Source: the human T2T-CHM13v2.0 reference genome, Homo sapiens
DNA: 64,000 bases
Assembly: GCF_009914755.1 (NCBI RefSeq)
Contig: NC_060942.1
Direction: 5' to 3' (one strand)
Part shown: positions 28,383-37,308 of the stretch, piece after piece
Numbering within the stretch: the stretch's first letter is position 1
Layout of the letters: the number at the start of each line of letters is the position of its first letter
The notes under the pieces: model-generated
What the model was told of the DNA's origin: nothing
Seen by the model: the letters and a program-made list of their open reading frames with translations, nothing else
The model's database searches: none
Translations under genes and position numbers: made by a program

Positions 28383-30049
28383 TTTTCAAGGTGCTGTCTG
28401 TCACCCCTTTCTTTGACTAGGAAAGGGAATTCCCTGACCCCTTGCACTTCCCGGGTGAGGCGATGCCTCGCCCTGCTTCAGCTCACACACGGTGCACTGC
28501 ACCCACTGTCTGGCACTACCCCGTGAGATGAACCCGGTACCTCAGTTGGAAATGCAAAAATCACCCGTCTTCTGTGTCGCTCACACTGGGAGCTGTAGAC
28601 TTTGTGAAACTCTTGTATTGTGTTACTCAACTCCGTCAGGCCTCTTAGTGGTGGTGGTGTTTTTTTTTCCTATGGTGGCTATTTCATCCTTCAGCTCCTG
28701 TATTATTCTATTGTGATTCTCGGTTTCCTTGCATTAGGTATTGCCATCTTCCTGAATCTCAACGGTCCTCATTCCTGCCCATAGTCTGAATTCTATTTCT
28801 ATCATGTCAGCCAGCTCTGTCTGGTTAAGAACTCTTCTTGGAGAACTGTTGTGGTCCTTAGGAGGACGTATGGCACTCTGGCCATTTGAGTTACCAGAGT
28901 TCTCGCGTTGGTTCTTTCTCATCTCTGCATGTGGGTGTTCCTTTAACTTCAGTGCAGACTCAGTACAGTCAATAGACTTCTTTTCTGGATGTTTTCACAG
29001 AACTGACACTTTATTCGGGTCTTGATTTGAAGCTGACTTCTTGTCTTTGGTTTCAGATGGGAGTATGTTAGCAAGGTACTTTTGGTGTTGAGGTTCTAGG
29101 GTGTGATCCAGTAGGTGGCGCTTAGGAATATTGGTCAGTTGGTAAACTCTTGCTCGTTTGTGTGGCTCCTCTATGTTGAACCACACTTGCAGCCCTGTTC
29201 CTTCCCAGTACTCTGAAAGTATGGGTTCCTCTCCCCCTTGAGTGCTGGCTGTAGATTGTGGCTTGGCACTCCTGGGCTGCCCACTGCAGCTCGGGGGCGA
29301 TCTCAGTGTTTATGTTCCTTCCCCAACTTGGAGGCACAGAGAAAGGGACCTTAGTAGTGGCTGTGGCCAAGGGTCTTTCGCGTGTCTCCTGGGGGCTCCA
29401 CCCATAGAGATGCAGGTCAGCATTCACTCAGTGCAATCAGCCCAGGTTGGAGTGTCTGTGCTGTGGGCCCAAGCCGGGGGTTCCCTGTCTGGTAGTGAGC
29501 AGAGGGGAGCATGTGGGGCCCATGGGAGATGGACTGGCCTCCTCTCCTTGGGTCAACTGCAGCTCATTGGAGGTGTGGATCAAGGACATAGGGTCTTTGC
29601 TCCTTCACTAGTCCAAGGGTAGCAAGGGCAGTTCCACTGCAGAGGCAGTGGCAGAGAGGCTTTCAGTTGCCCCTGGAGGCTGTGTCAATGGAGTTGCCGA
29701 GCTGCCACTGGCTCCATAGGTCTGGCGAGGGGTGGCTAGAGGACCTGCCAGGTGAGGAGTTTCGGGAATGGGCACCCATGTAACAGTGTGGCCACTTTCT
29801 GTAGGGCTGCTGCAGTATGCTGAGGGCCTGCTCCAGTCCCTAGTCACCTTGGATTTTTCAGCACCTGGAGGTATGAAGGTTGCAAAACAGCAAAGATGGT
29901 GGCCTGCCCCTCCCACTGGAAGCCCTGTCCCAGGGAGGTATGGAGCTGTTGACGGCCTGAATGCATCTGTAGGAGGTAGCTGGAGAGACCTCGGTTGACA
30001 GGTCCCGCTGAGTGAGGAGAAGCCTCACTCAGAAAAGTATTGGGGCCAC

Positions 30050-30346
30050 TTTTCTTTTTTCCTTTTTTTTTTGAGAGAGTCTCACTCTGCCACCCAGGCT
30101 GGAGTGTAGTGGCACAATCTGGGCTCACTGCAACCTCTGCCTGCTAGGTTCAAGCAATTCTCCTGCCTCAGCCTCCCGAGTAGCTGGGACTACAGGTGCA
30201 CGCCACCACGCCTGGCTAACTTTTTGTACTTTTAGTCAAGAGGCCGTGTCACCATGCTGGCCAGGCTGATCTCCAACTGCTGACCTCATGATCTGCCCAT
30301 CTCAGCCTCCCAAAGTGCTGGGATTACCGGCGTAAGCAATTGTGCC
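30050..30346 (-). mobile_element. AluS-type SINE in left arm (mirror at ~35563-35860, +)
   Basis: Antisense Alu with poly-T. Confidence 0.92.
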
Positions 30347-30411
30347 TGTTTTTAGAAAACAGCACTACGTTTTTTTGAAAAACCAGTCTGTGCATCGTTC
30401 TGTTGAGCAGC

Positions 30412-33651: not shown

Positions 33652-36600
33652 TGGTGCAATCTCGGCTCACCACAACCTCCGCCTCCTGGGTTCAAGCAAT
33701 TCTCCAGCCTCAGCCTTCCGAGCAGCTGGGACTACAGGCATAGGCCAGCATGCCCAGCTAATTTTTGGAGTTTTAGTAGAGACGGGTTCTCACCATGTTG
33801 CCCAGCTGGCCTCGAACTCCTGATCTCAAACGATCCGCCCTCCTCGGCCTCCCAAAGTGGTGGGATTACAGGGGTGAGCCACCGTGCCCAGCCCAGACTG
33901 CTTTTTTAAAGTGGGCTGCCGATCCTGTTCCTCCTTAATGTGTGAGACTTCCTGGCAGGGGTCTTCAACTACCCCTGCCAGTGTCTGCCAGCCAACAGAG
34001 GTTTCCAACCTCCCTGGGATGAAGCTCTCAGAGGCAGAGGCAGGCTGCTACCTTTGCCATTTGGGTGGCTTAGCCATTCCAGCTTGTGGGCTTTGGAGTG
34101 TTCTAGGTGACTGGGGGCTGAAGCGCGGACCCTTAGCACAGCGCAGCTGGTCTACAAAAACGAGGCCAGACTGCTTTTTAAAGGGGGCCCCGATCTTGTT
34201 CCTCCTCACTGGGCAGGGCCTCCCAACTGTGGTCTCCAGCCACCTCCTACAGGTGTGTTTGGGCCACCAACAGGTCCATACCTCTCAGGGACAGACCTCT
34301 TGGAGGGAGGGGCAGGCCGCCATCTTTGCTGTTTCACAGCCTTCACTCGTGTTACCTCTAGATATGGAAGATCCGAGCTGGCTAGGGACAGGATTGGGCC
34401 CCCAGCATACTGCAGCAGCCCTACAGGAAAGTCTCCAGAGTGTCACGTGGATGCCCATTACCGTATCTTTTCAGGGGGCTGGTCCTCTGGGCCTGGGCTT
34501 CCAGCAATCTCCCACCAGAGATGCCAAGCCAATAGCAGCCCTGCAATGCCCTGAACAGAGCCTCCAGGAGCAACTGAAAGCCTCTCTGCCACTGCCTCTA
34601 CAGTGGAACTACCCTTGCTACCTTTGGACTAATGAAGCAGCAAAGACCCTACCTGCCTTATCCACACCTCCAGCAGGCTGCAGTTGACCCAAAAAGAGGA
34701 GGCCAGTCCATCTCTCAATGCTTAAAAAAAAAGTAGGCAGTCTGGCCATCTTTTCATCGAGCAGCTGTGCTGTGCTGGGGGTACGCTCCCATTCCTGGTC
34801 ACGGGGTTCACTTCCAAGCCAGAAAGCTGGATCCGCCCAGCCACCAAAACTGCAAAGATGGCAGGTTGCCCCTCCCCTTAGGAGCTCTGTCGCAGGGAGG
34901 CCTCAAACCTCTGTCAGCTGGAGAGCACTGGCAAGAGTGCCTGGAGACTCCAGTCGGGAGGTCCCGCTCAGTGAGGATGGCGTGTGGCTGGGCTAGGCTG
35001 GCACCTGCCACCCCCGATCGGCTTGAACCCTCTAAAGCCTGCAGGATGCAATGGCTAAGTTGCCCCAACAGCAAAGATGGCGGCCTGCCTCTCCTTCTTG
35101 GAGGTTCATCCTGGGGAGGTTTCAGATCTCTGTCAGGTGGAAAACACCGGGATCAGGGACCCGCTTAAAAGGGCCAACTGGGGGCTGCTCTACGAAAACG
35201 TGGCCAGACTGCTTTTTCAAGTGGGTCCCTGATCCCGTTCCTCTTCACTGGGTGGGAGCTTTCAACTGGGGTGTCCAGCCACCCTTGCCAGTGTTCTCTG
35301 GCTGACAGACGTCCCAAATCTCCTTGAGATGGAGCTCCCAGGGAGTGCGGTAGGCCACCATCTCTTCTATTTGGGCAACTTAGCCCTTCCAGCCTTCGGG
35401 CTCAGAAGTGAACGAGGAGATCGGGGACGGAAGCAGACCCCCAGCACAGCACAGCACAGCACAGCACAGCACAGCACAGCACAGCACAGCACAACACAGC
35501 TGCTCAACAGAACGATGCACAGACTGGTTTTTCAAAAAAACGTAGTGCTGTTTTCTAAAAACAGGCACAATTGCTTACGCCGGTAATCCCAGCACTTTGG
35601 GAGGCTGAGGTGGGCAGATCATGAGGTCAGCAGTTGGAGATCAGCCTGGCCAGCATGGTGACACGGCCTCTTGACTAAAAGTACAAAAAGTTAGCCAGGC
35701 GTGGTGGCGTGCACCTGTAGTCCCAGCTACTCGGGAGGCTGAGGCAGGAGAATTGCTTGAACCTAGCAGGCAGAGGTTGCAGTGAGCCCAGATTGTGCCA
35801 CTACACTCCAGCCTGGGTGGCAGAGTGAGACTCTCTCAAAAAAAAAAGGAAAAAAGAAAAGTGGCCCCAATACTTTTCTGAGTGAGGCTTCTCCTCACTC
35901 AGCGGGACCTGTCAACCGAGGTCTCTCCAGCTACCTCCTACAGATGCATTCAGGCCGTCAACAGCTCCATACCTCCCTGGGACAGGGCTTCCAGTGGGAG
36001 GGGCAGGCCACCATCTTTGCTGTTTTGCAACCTTCATACCTCCAGGTGCTGAAAAATCCAAGGTGACTAGGGACTGGAGCAGGCCCTCAGCATACTGCAG
36101 CAGCCCTACAGAAAGTGGCCACACTGTTACATGGGTGCCCATTCCCGAAACTCCTCACCTGGCAGGTCCTCTAGCCACCCCTCGCCAGACCTATGGAGCC
36201 AGTGGCAGCTCGGCAACTCCATTGACACAGCCTCCAGGGGCAACTGAAAGCCTCTCTGCCACTGCCTCTGCAGTGGAACTGCCCTTGCTACCCTTGGACT
36301 AGTGAAGGAGCAAAGACCCTATGTCCTTGATCCACACCTCCAACGAGCTGCAGTTGACCCAAGGAGAGGAGGCCAGTCCATCTCCCATGGGCCCCACATG
36401 CTCCCCTCTGCTCACTACCAGACAGGGAACCCCCGGCTTGGGCCCACAGCACAGACACTCCAACCTGGGCTGATTGCACTGAGTGAATGCTGACCTGCAT
36501 CTCTATGGGTGGAGCCCCCAGGAGACACGCGAAAGACCCTTGGCCACAGCCACTACTAAGGTCCCTTTCTCTGTGCCTCCAAGTTGGGGAAGGAACATAA

Positions 36601-37308
36601 ACACTGAGATCGCCCCCGAGCTGCAGTGGGCAGCCCAGGAGTGCCAAGCCACAATCTACAGCCAGCACTCAAGGGGGAGAGGAACCCATACTTTCAGAGT
36701 ACTGGGAAGGAACAGGGCTGCAAGTGTGGTTCAACATAGAGGAGCCACACAAACGAGCAAGAGTTTACCAACTGACCAATATTCCTAAGCGCCACCTACT
36801 GGATCACACCCTAGAACCTCAACACCAAAAGTACCTTGCTAACATACTCCCATCTGAAACCAAAGACAAGAAGTCAGCTTCAAATCAAGACCCGAATAAA
36901 GTGTCAGTTCTGTGAAAACATCCAGAAAAGAAGTCTATTGACTGTACTGAGTCTGCACTGAAGTTAAAGGAACACCCACATGCAGAGATGAGAAAGAACC
37001 AACGCGAGAACTCTGGTAACTCAAATGGCCAGAGTGCCATACGTCCTCCTAAGGACCACAACAGTTCTCCAAGAAGAGTTCTTAACCAGACAGAGCTGGC
37101 TGACATGATAGAAATAGAATTCAGACTATGGGCAGGAATGAGGACCGTTGAGATTCAGGAAGATGGCAATACCTAATGCAAGGAAACCGAGAATCACAAT
37201 AGAATAATACAGGAGCTGAAGGATGAAATAGCCACCATAGGAAAAAAAAACACCACCACCACTAAGAGGCCTGACGGAGTTGAGTAACACAATACAAGAA
37301 TTTCACAA
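33652..37308 (+). repeat. Right arm of large inverted repeat
   Basis: Reverse complement of 28602-32252. Confidence 0.97.

What the first reader, a model, noticed from the sequence alone, without database searches (positions are those of the whole stretch)
28602..37308. 8.7-kb quasi-palindrome built from an ancient L1 5'UTR, with near-identical arms
Seen: 28602-32252 is the reverse complement of 33652-37308 (arms ~3.65 kb, spacer ~1.4 kb). In the arm interior I could find only about six differences: SNVs near 29567, 30300, 30758 and 31373, a 1-bp indel near 30900, and one extra GCACA unit. The repeats that make up the arms (old L1 plus AluS-type Alus) are far older than this near-identity implies. 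Established: closely spaced inverted repeats promote inversion by NAHR, hairpin or cruciform formation, and arm-to-arm gene conversion, as in sex-chromosome palindromes. Inference: this is a small autosomal self-correcting palindrome next to an ANKRD26-family gene. I recall, unverified, inversion calls near ANKRD62 at 18p11.21, so the inversion itself may already be catalogued.
Basis: partly seen in the sequence, partly recalled or inferred. Interest (0 to 1): 0.85.

Follow-up and report, generated by a model that had tools for sequence, protein, structure and literature searches.

The report
Small repeat-built palindrome inside ANKRD62
A 3.65-kb stretch of old L1 and Alu sequence has been copied in reverse next to itself, giving a real 8.7-kb palindrome that can flip its 1.4-kb centre and may keep its arms alike, an ordinary kind of human structural feature.

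Summary
Arms 28602-32252 and 33652-37308 are reverse complements around a 1399-bp spacer. They differ by 9 transitions, one 5-bp repeat unit and one 1-bp indel. The T2T-CHM13 genome holds no third copy above 81% identity.

Each arm is a composite: the first 321 nt of ORF1 and a rearranged 5'UTR of an old L1, plus two Alus. Both arms share those Alus, so this is a DNA-level inverted duplication, not two L1 insertions.

New anatomy:
- The left arm abuts an L1PA that lacks about 37 nt at its 5' end (blunt junction).
- The right arm joins the spacer at a truncated Alu, with a 3-nt inverted overlap.
- The left arm is continuous with the spacer, and the right arm with the L1 body.

This fits a break-and-copy origin, and the spacer is inverted relative to the L1 body.

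Five of the 9 SNVs lie within 30 bp of arm ends (P=1.4e-7). At the inner end, CpG decay is seen on both arms. This mildly favours an older palindrome homogenised by gene conversion (about 0.5) over a young duplication (about 0.4). Only ape or other human haplotypes can decide.

It is an ordinary kind of feature. No published record of this locus was found.

The parts
21513..22197 (-). 5'-truncated L1PA 3' fragment of about 670 nt with its own short poly(T). Context only.
   Evidence: 94.5% identical to 22197-22871. It abuts the poly(T) of the next element.
22198..28601 (-). Near-full-length L1PA lacking about 37 nt at its 5' end. Its truncated 5' end forms the outer junction with the left arm.
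   Evidence: three full-length genomic copies run about 37 nt further; the best genomic matches of its 5'UTR are 91-93%. No target-site duplication was found.
28602..32252 (.). Left arm, 3651 nt, with old L1 antisense on the + strand. Its outer end is a novel junction. Its inner end is continuous with the spacer.
28602..28922 (-). First 321 nt of the degenerate ORF1 of the old L1, left-arm copy. The right-arm copy is 36988-37308 on +.
   Evidence: ATG positions; an open stretch runs across 37308.
30050..30348 (-). Alu 1, present at the same place in both arms. The right-arm copy is about 35562-35860 on +.
   Evidence: Sequence. Alu hits at 30069-30346 and 35564-35841.
30400..30462 (.). (TGTGC)n repeat. 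The right arm has one more unit (35489-35493).
30755..31185 (.). Block of L1 5'UTR monomers in reverse orientation relative to the rest of the arm, part of an older rearrangement.
   Evidence: 8 of 8 other family copies have a single monomer orientation.
31187..32011 (-). Second copy of an L1 5'UTR piece followed by forward monomers. 31187-31702 is 77% identical to 29523-30019.
   Evidence: collinear with family copies L004 and L007.
32012..32300 (+). Alu 2, complete, with flanking target-site duplication (AAAAAAGCAGTCTGG / AAAAAAGTCTGG). The arm ends inside it at 32252.
   Evidence: Sequence.
32253..33651 (.). Spacer, 1399 nt: the Alu 2 tail, forward monomers 32301-33301 and reverse monomers 33336-33651.
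33652..33654 (.). Inner novel junction. TGG is shared by the monomer end and the truncated Alu, and is the reverse complement of CCA at 32250-32252 (3-nt inverted overlap).
   Evidence: Sequence. Monomer alignment.
33652..37308 (.). Right arm, 3657 nt, with old L1 sense on the + strand. Its inner end is a novel junction (Alu 2 copy cut at 33652). Its outer end is continuous with the L1 body.
37309..42312 (+). Single-copy remainder of the old L1: the rest of ORF1, ORF2 and the 3' end with a degenerate A-rich tail.
   Evidence: Pfam PF02994 at 37444-37871 (E 1e-8 and 1e-23) and PF17490. Collinear with family copies across 37308. 3' end seen.

Best explanation
This is an inverted segmental duplication, a small palindrome with no gene of its own.

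Origin (inferred):
- A 3.65-kb piece of a composite repeat was copied in reverse at the DNA level. The piece holds the start of ORF1 and the already rearranged 5'UTR of an old L1, carrying two Alu insertions.
- The event came after both Alus and the neighbouring L1PA had inserted.
- It was a break-and-copy event of the fold-back or template-switch kind and left two novel junctions. One is a blunt join to the L1PA at 28601|28602. The other is a 3-nt inverted overlap (TGG/CCA) at 33652-33654.

Later history:
- The spacer is continuous with the left arm, while the L1 body is continuous with the right arm. So the spacer now lies inverted relative to the L1 it came from.
- Either the event made it so in one step (two template switches), or a later arm-to-arm crossover flipped it.
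- Since then the two arms most likely exchange sequence by intrachromosomal gene conversion. That keeps the 3.6-kb interior at 99.9% while the last 30 bp at the arm ends, which conversion rarely reaches, have drifted apart.

Shown: the anatomy, the junctions, the shared Alus and the distribution and polarity of the differences. Inferred: the formation mechanism, the gene conversion and an age greater than the interior identity suggests.
For: - Arms and differences.
- Two copies only: the best other genomic match is 81%.
- Same Alu at the same place in both arms, so the arms were duplicated after those insertions.
- The right arm runs on collinearly into the L1 body across 37308: L005 aligns over 35891-38758 at 80.5%, and L008 and L009 do likewise. 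An ORF1 reading stretch crosses 37308, and PF02994 lies just outside the arm.
- The left arm runs on into a complete Alu with a target-site duplication and then further monomers.
- The L1PA lacks about 37 nt that three full-length copies have.
- No arm continuation exists left of the L1PA. Monomer sequence is confined to 29886-36024.
- The 3-nt inverted overlap at the spacer/right-arm junction matches the fold-back signature in passages of PMC3907307. There, single-copy spacers measure 766-70,466 bp, and 13 of 21 sequenced junctions have 2-8 bp of inverted microhomology.

For conversion:
- 5 of 9 SNVs lie within 30 bp of an arm end (binomial P=1.4e-7). Four or more of 9 in any 30-bp window has permutation P=2.5e-4.
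- 3 of 4 CpG sites differ in the last 32 columns, against 2 of 69 elsewhere (Fisher P=6e-4).
- Polarised against 13 other Alu hits in the window, two of them the arms' own Alu 1 copies: 32223 is derived in the left arm and 32232 in the right arm. At 32248/32249 one arm has TG and the other CA, as from a single CG. So both arms have decayed independently there.
- The abstract of PMC3723533 reports mean conversion tracts of 2068 bp in Y palindrome P6, so one tract can cover much of a 3.65-kb arm.
Against: - Only one haplotype of one species could be examined, so neither conversion nor age is observed directly.
- The excess of differences is step-like. All four inner-edge differences are within 30 bp of the end, and none of the other CpG sites of the same Alu differs (seven by my reading; only 5 of 73 CpG sites differ in all). 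A smooth fall-off of conversion would predict some intermediate sites.
- Both clusters lie beside the two novel junctions, where error-prone repair synthesis or a short patch copied from another Alu could also place differences. 3 of the 5 edge differences (28610, 32232-equivalent, 32249-equivalent) are derived on the presumed new copy.
- The interior differences (4 SNVs in 3591 bp) equal what a duplication well under a million years old would show. That figure is my estimate from recalled human-chimpanzee divergence, not a tool result.
- CpG observed/expected is the same in the arms (0.26) and the spacer (0.23), so there is no sign of GC-biased conversion.
Confidence: 0.5

Rival explanations
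1. Young inverted duplication without gene conversion. The same break-and-copy event happened recently, on the human lineage. The arms are alike simply because they are young. The differences bunched at the arm ends were made at the event itself, by error-prone synthesis after each template switch or by a roughly 30-nt patch templated from another Alu.
For: - Interior divergence is 4 SNVs in 3591 bp, and 9 in 3651 overall.
- Both clusters of differences adjoin the two novel junctions: 28610 is 8 bp from 28602, and four sites lie within 30 bp of 33652.
- 28610 is derived in the left arm, the presumed new copy at that junction (5 of 6 family copies carry the right-arm base).
- 32232-equivalent and 32249-equivalent are derived in the right arm, which bears the novel junction.
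- The step-like pattern suits a short patch.
Against: - 32223 and 32248 are derived in the left arm, whose inner end is the ancestral, continuous one (C in 11 of 13 other Alus at 32223; a TG/CA pair at 32248/32249).
- For errors on the right arm alone, two of four errors would have had to restore the consensus base at decayed CpG sites. I estimate the chance at about 0.02 (my arithmetic, not a tool result).
- A patch from a different Alu would have to share the G at 32233 with the left arm, which 3 of 13 other Alus in the window carry.
- All 9 differences are transitions and 6 are in CpG context. That looks like ordinary ageing rather than polymerase error.
Confidence: 0.4
2. Assembly artefact: a single arm in reality, mirrored by a chimeric or fold-back read or by misassembly.
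For: None from the sequence. The possibility is raised only because palindromes can be created by read artefacts.
Against: - The arms differ at 11 places.
- A 1399-bp unique spacer separates them.
- The two arm ends have different, specific junctions: an L1PA end and a truncated Alu.
- Read-level fold-backs give perfect, spacer-less mirrors.
- That 8.7 kb is shorter than single HiFi reads is recalled knowledge.
Confidence: 0.03
3. Retrotransposition origin: two independent insertions of the same L1 family in opposite orientation, or a twin-priming 5' inversion of one L1.
For: - The arms are L1 5' sequence.
- The bioRxiv preprint 10.1101/2021.12.20.472354 (abstract and passages) states that about 85% of human inversions under 2 kb arise by twin priming.
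Against: - Both arms carry the same two Alu insertions at the same positions, so they were copied after those insertions.
- Independent copies of this family are only 76-82% alike.
- The arms are duplicated over 3.65 kb, which twin priming does not do.
- One arm ends in the middle of ORF1 against a different, younger L1.
Confidence: 0.01

Closest known systems
Inverted-repeat-flanked inversion loci of the human genome (InvFEST HsInv series; HGSVC balanced inversions)
   Same: A short single-copy segment lies between inverted repeats of a few kb at high identity, made partly of mobile elements. In passages of the bioRxiv preprint 10.1101/2021.12.20.472354, 132 of 183 sequence-resolved balanced inversions have flanking inverted repeats of 200 bp or more. 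Of those, 31 are mobile-element pairs and 22 are L1 pairs, with a median identity of 97.2%.
   Different: Whether this spacer is polymorphic in orientation is unknown. The locus was not found in the main texts searched or in the 12 of 14 supplementary files of PMC6748972 that were searched. Here the repeats are two copies of one duplicated composite segment, not two separate L1 insertions.
Sex-chromosome palindromes (human Y P1-P8; 26 X palindromes)
   Same: Inverted arms above 99% identity surround a unique spacer. Arm-to-arm gene conversion and spacer inversion are the established behaviour: PMC3723533 abstract and PMC8327919 passages.
   Different: The arms are 3.65 kb, against the 8-kb minimum used in PMC8327919. 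They hold no gene, only decayed L1 and Alu. The locus is autosomal. Conservation across species was not tested.
Fold-back inverted duplications with a single-copy spacer (Hermetz et al. 2014, PMC3907307)
   Same: A single-copy spacer of kilobase size is continuous with one copy. A few bases of inverted microhomology lie at the junction between the spacer and the inverted copy: 3 nt here, against 2-8 bp in 13 of 21 junctions there. The spacer is 1399 bp here, against 766-70,466 bp there.
   Different: Those events are megabase-scale, terminal and pathogenic, and go through a dicentric chromosome. This one is 3.65 kb, interstitial and closed by a second, blunt junction to an L1PA.
L1 twin-priming 5' inversions
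   Same: Inverted L1 5' sequence next to the body of the same L1.
   Different: There is a 3.65-kb duplication, Alu insertions are shared by both arms, and a different L1 lies at one end. The definition is not met (see membership test). Twin priming may still explain the older reverse-monomer blocks inside the arms; this was not resolved.

Membership tests
Inverted segmental duplication (low-copy repeat) | Two copies of at least 1 kb at 90% identity or more, in inverted orientation | tested here: met
   3651 and 3657 nt at 99.6% identity, reverse complement.
Inverted segmental duplication (low-copy repeat) | Low copy number: the high identity is not just membership of an interspersed repeat family | tested here: met
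   Whole-genome search: only the two arms are near-identical and the next best match is 81% (40 of 20,984 candidates scored).
Large palindrome as defined for primate X/Y chromosomes | Arm-to-arm identity of at least 99% | tested here: met
   99.6% including gaps, 99.75% at aligned bases.
Large palindrome as defined for primate X/Y chromosomes | Arms of at least 8 kb (criterion quoted in PMC8327919) | tested here: not met
   The arms are 3.65 kb.
Large palindrome as defined for primate X/Y chromosomes | Arms carry (mostly testis-expressed) protein-coding genes | tested here: not met
   The arms consist of a decayed L1 5' end and Alus. The hub annotation lists no exon in 28602-37308.
Large palindrome as defined for primate X/Y chromosomes | Concerted evolution: arms within a species more alike than orthologous arms between species | not testable with these tools
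   No ape or second human assembly is held. states that the genome has no relatives here.
NAHR inversion locus flanked by inverted repeats | Inverted repeats of at least 200 bp on both sides of a single-copy segment | tested here: met
   3.65-kb arms around a 1399-bp spacer.
NAHR inversion locus flanked by inverted repeats | Both orientations of the segment seen among haplotypes or species | not testable with these tools
   There is only indirect evidence of one past inversion. The spacer is continuous with the left arm and the L1 body with the right arm. This could equally date from the formation event.
Fold-back / template-switch inverted duplication | Single-copy spacer continuous with one copy; novel junction at the other copy with short inverted microhomology | tested here: met
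   Alu 2 is complete, with its target-site duplication, at the left arm/spacer boundary. TGG at 33652-33654 is the reverse complement of CCA at 32250-32252 and is shared by the monomer and the Alu. Compared with passages of PMC3907307.
L1 twin-priming inversion | Both segments come from one L1 RNA at one insertion, without kilobase duplication or later insertions shared by both segments | tested here: not met
   The same two Alus lie in both arms, with a 3.65-kb duplication.

The most novel reading that the evidence does not exclude
This may be a palindrome built wholly from interspersed repeats that arose in an ape ancestor, after the L1PA inserted. On that reading, arm-to-arm gene conversion has kept it at 99.9% interior identity for on the order of ten million years, with only the last 30 bp of each arm escaping, and its 1.4-kb centre has flipped at least once.

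Such repeat-only palindromes would be a class that duplication catalogues tend to skip, because those catalogues remove common repeats first (recalled, not checked). Because the palindrome lies inside the ANKRD62 transcription unit, read-through RNA would fold into a 3.6-kb near-perfect double strand.
Probability: 0.4. Interest if true: 0.45.

Novelty: new member of a known kind. Interest (0 to 1): 0.3.

Why it matters
The importance is modest.

- The locus is a clean, fully resolved small autosomal palindrome whose two junctions can still be read. Its origin (break-and-copy beside an L1PA) and its later behaviour (conversion, spacer flip) can therefore be tested directly on ape and human long-read assemblies.
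- If the arms prove old, the locus gives a compact natural measure of how close to a homology boundary gene conversion reaches. Here that would be within about 30 bp.
- On the practical side, the two arms will confuse short-read mapping and variant calling in this part of ANKRD62.
- A 3.65-kb inverted pair at 1.4-kb distance is a plausible substrate for recurrent inversion.
- No effect on ANKRD62 coding sequence is expected. The selected transcript ends at 16924, and the palindrome lies only within the longer gene span (hub table).

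Tried and rejected
**Sequence checks**
- Arm continuation beyond the L1PA: no high-identity match between sequence left of 21513 and 37309 onward. A longer palindrome interrupted by an L1PA insertion is rejected.
- Target-site duplications: none found for the L1PA fragment's left flank (one exact 11-mer at 28914 lies 310 bp inside the arm and fits chance). 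None found for the near-full-length L1PA's 3' flank, nor for the old L1's 3' flank. The order of L1PA insertion and palindrome formation could therefore not be fixed this way.
- Other genomic copies that could serve as an outgroup for the pre-duplication state: none.
- Eroded inner arms: the reverse monomer at 33470-33660 is 88-92% like two forward monomers in the spacer, but those three monomers are simply a similar subtype. No collinear decayed arm was found.
- GC-biased conversion signal: CpG observed/expected is 0.26 in the arms and 0.23 in the spacer, so no signal.
- Polarity of 30757: ambiguous (most relatives carry A, which may itself be CpG decay).
- Repeat family names (L1PA number, old L1 family, Alu subfamily): no repeat library is available here, so none is assigned. 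Ages are rough estimates from pairwise identities and recalled rates.

**Literature**
- 'ANKRD62' + 'inversion': 1 paper, on goat, irrelevant.
- '18p11.21' + 'polymorphic inversion' + 'inverted repeats': 0 papers.
- No 'chr18', '18p11' or 'ANKRD' in the main texts of PMC3961182, PMC6748972 or PMC13629690.
- No 'chr18' or '18p11' in 12 of 14 supplementary files of PMC6748972; 2 files were not searched.
- The one chr18 mention in PMC13721702 is a centromeric locus.
- The journal version of that work, a haplotype-resolved structural-variant paper and Warburton 2004 are not held.
- A broad search with ANKRD62 as an optional term brought nothing on this gene.
- dsRNA papers: no mention of the locus in PMC12695637.

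So 'not in print' means only: not found in these searches. Inversion and duplication call sets in supplements I could not open may well list it.

Full report
**1. Observation**

- The repeat finder reports three abutting arm segments at about 100% complementarity.
- blastn gives one 3652-column alignment at 99.64%.
- A global alignment with 50-nt flanks fixes the arms at 28602-32252 (3651 nt) and 33652-37308 (3657 nt), with a 1399-nt spacer. Outside these limits the alignment collapses at once.

The arms differ at nine single bases, all transitions: 28610, 29566, 30300, 30757, 31372, 32223, 32232, 32248 and 32249. They also differ by one extra 5-bp unit of a (TGTGC)n repeat in the right arm and one extra G at 35005. 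It missed 28610 and the four differences in the last 30 bp of the inner edge.

Nothing else in the window comes close; the next inverted match is 78%. In the whole T2T-CHM13 genome the only near-identical match to the left arm is the right arm. All other matches are 81% or lower (40 of 20,984 first-look candidates scored).

**2. What the arms are made of**

The outer 1.4 kb of each arm belongs to an interspersed repeat with many genomic copies at 76-81% identity. Eight fetched copies align collinearly with the right-hand copy, three of them straight through the arm boundary at 37308 (for example L005 over 35891-38758 at 80.5%).

Downstream of the right arm lie an L1 ORF1 RNA-binding domain (PF02994, E=1e-23; PF17490) and the start of ORF2. 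The element ends in a degenerate A-rich tail near 42312. So the right arm is the 5' end of an old L1 in + orientation.

Each arm holds the following parts (left-arm coordinates unless stated):
- the first 321 nt of ORF1 (ATG at 36988 + and 28922 -);
- about 1.1 kb of 5'UTR;
- an Alu (about 30050-30348);
- forward promoter-like monomers (30435-30722);
- a block of reverse monomers (30755-31185);
- a second copy of part of the 5'UTR with more monomers (31187-32011; 31187-31702 is 77% like 29523-30019);
- most of a second Alu (32012-32252).

The spacer continues with the Alu tail, forward monomers (32301-33301) and reverse monomers (33336-33651). A 16-nt monomer motif occurs 12 times in 29891-36019 and nowhere else in the window, against 0.28 expected.

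In 8 of 8 other family copies the monomers run in one orientation only, and there are no inverted self-matches. This locus therefore already carried an older rearrangement before the palindrome formed. I did not resolve how that arose.

The NCBI soft-mask leaves most of this old L1 unmasked, but it is plainly a repeat.

**3. It is a DNA-level duplication**

Both arms carry the same two Alus at the same positions. Independent copies of the L1 family are only about 80% alike. Two separate L1 insertions, or a twin-priming inversion, are therefore excluded.

**4. Junction anatomy (new)**

Outer left junction:
- The left arm abuts the 5' end of a near-full-length L1PA in - orientation (22198-28601).
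- Aligned with three full-length genomic copies, this L1PA stops about 37 nt short of their 5' ends. It passes directly into the arm with 0-1 nt of overlap.
- Its 5'UTR is 91-93% identical to its best genomic matches, and it is 92% like another L1PA at 54308-58625. It is therefore far younger than the old L1 but not recent.
- No target-site duplication could be found for it or for the 670-nt L1PA fragment at 21513-22197 that abuts its poly(T).
- The arm does not resume on the far side of the L1PA.

Inner junctions:
- In the left arm the Alu is complete, flanked by a 15/13-nt target-site duplication, and followed by the expected continuation of the L1 monomer.
- In the right arm the same Alu is cut at 33652 and joined to the end of a reverse monomer.
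- The three bases TGG (33652-33654) fit both the monomer and the Alu. They are the reverse complement of CCA at 32250-32252.

Each arm thus has one ancestral end and one novel end. The left arm is continuous with the spacer, and the right arm with the L1 body. Two conclusions follow.
- (a) There are only two novel junctions, one blunt and one with a 3-nt inverted overlap. A single-copy spacer of 1.4 kb is continuous with one copy. This is the signature described for fold-back inverted duplications: spacers of 766-70,466 bp, and 2-8 bp of inverted microhomology in 13 of 21 junctions (passages of PMC3907307).
- (b) The spacer is now inverted relative to the L1 it belongs to. Either a one-step event with two template switches (L1PA end to the ORF1 site on the other strand, back through the arm and spacer, then back to the Alu) made it so, or a fold-back copy was followed by an arm-to-arm crossover.

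The mechanism is inference. The anatomy is read directly from the sequence.

**5. Young, or kept alike?**

The interior (more than 30 bp from either end) has 4 SNVs in 3591 bp. By recalled human-chimpanzee divergence that is well under a million years of separate evolution.

The differences are not spread evenly:
- Five of nine lie within 30 bp of an arm end (binomial P=1.4e-7). Four or more of nine in any 30-bp window has permutation P=2.5e-4.
- Six of nine are in CpG context.
- In the last 32 alignment columns 3 of 4 CpG sites differ, against 2 of 69 elsewhere (Fisher P=6e-4).

Polarity of the differences:

| Site | Outgroup evidence | Derived in |
|---|---|---|
| 32223 | 13 other Alu hits in the window, two being the arms' own Alu 1 copies: C in 11 of 13 | left arm |
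| 32232 | same outgroup: C in 13 of 13 | right arm |
| 32248/32249 | TG in one arm, CA in the other, the two decay products of one CG | one change in each arm |
| 28610 | L1 family copies | left arm |
| 29566 | L1 family copies | left arm |
| 30300 | other Alus: C 7, T 3 | probably left arm |
| 31372 | family copies: C 7 of 8 | right arm |
| 30757 | | ambiguous |

Independent CpG decay on both arms at the inner edge is what an old boundary that escapes gene conversion would show. At usual CpG decay rates it would take on the order of ten million years (my estimate from recalled rates, not a tool result). Conversion tracts of about 2 kb, as measured in Y palindrome P6 (abstract of PMC3723533), could homogenise most of a 3.65-kb arm in one event.

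Three points count against this reading:
- The excess is step-like. No other CpG of the same Alu differs.
- Both clusters lie next to the two novel junctions, where error-prone repair synthesis, or a short patch templated from another Alu, could also have put them.
- Three of the five edge differences are derived on the presumed new copy.

Neither alternative fits cleanly either:
- Errors confined to the right arm would have had to restore the consensus base at two decayed CpGs.
- A foreign Alu patch would have to share the G at 32233 with the left arm, which only 3 of 13 other Alus in the window carry.

I put an older, conversion-homogenised palindrome at about 0.5 and a young duplication at about 0.4. 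If the junction with the truncated L1PA was made by the same event, the palindrome is younger than that L1PA, which bounds its age from above.

**6. Artefact**

Eleven arm-to-arm differences, a unique spacer and two different specific junctions are not what a fold-back read or a collapsed assembly produces. I give this about 0.03.

**7. Comparison with what is known**

- The structure works like the inverted-repeat pairs that flank many human inversions. In the HGSVC preprint, 132 of 183 sequence-resolved balanced inversions have flanking inverted repeats of 200 bp or more, including 22 L1 pairs (passages).
- It also works like the sex-chromosome palindromes, where arm-to-arm conversion and spacer inversion are established.
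- It is not a member of the 'large palindrome' class as defined for the X chromosome. Its arms are below 8 kb and hold no genes.
- It meets the definition of an inverted segmental duplication.
- It shows the junction signature of fold-back or template-switch duplications, at a thousandth of their usual size.

**8. Published record**

I found no record of this locus. The list of searches and their limits is under Tried and rejected.

**9. Verdict**

The feature is a new, well-resolved member of a common class, with two readable junctions and a testable hint of gene conversion. It has no coding content and no annotated function. It lies within the long ANKRD62 gene span but beyond the selected transcript.

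Interest is about 0.3.

Noticed in passing
window 21513-22197 and 22198-28601: Two L1PA pieces lie head to tail on the - strand. A 670-nt 5'-truncated 3' fragment directly abuts the poly(T) of a near-full-length copy. Their 3' ends are 94.5% identical (21528-22201 against 22197-22871). No target-site duplication was found for either.
   Followed up: partly
window 54308-60373: A second L1PA lies in the same (-) orientation. It is 92.4% identical to 22197-26513 and 84.5% identical to 26805-28601 in the 5'UTR region. This direct repeat pair about 32 kb apart brackets the palindrome, a possible substrate for deletion or duplication of the interval.
   Followed up: no
window 29523-31185 and 31187-33651: There is an older layer of rearrangement inside the arm and spacer. 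Two tandem units each consist of a 5'UTR piece, forward monomers, a switch point and reverse monomers, and are 71-77% alike. 8 of 8 other genomic copies of this L1 family have monomers in one orientation only. The origin is unresolved; twin priming or an ancient template switch are candidates.
   Followed up: partly
window 29891-36019: A 16-nt motif (CAAAGATGGCGGCCTG, up to 3 mismatches) marks each 5'UTR monomer: 12 matches against 0.28 expected, none elsewhere in the window. It resembles the YY1-type box at the start of younger L1 promoters (recalled, not tested).
   Followed up: partly
window 28604-32003 and 33901-42312: The NCBI soft-mask listed by the hub leaves nearly all of the old L1 unmasked (arms and body), although it has many genomic copies at 76-82%. 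'Unmasked' here does not mean unique.
   Followed up: yes
window 32580-32770, 32915-33090, 33470-33660: Three distal monomers, two forward and one reverse, are about 85-92% alike. That is much closer than other monomer pairs (about 70-75%), so they look like a younger monomer subtype or a local amplification inside the spacer.
   Followed up: partly
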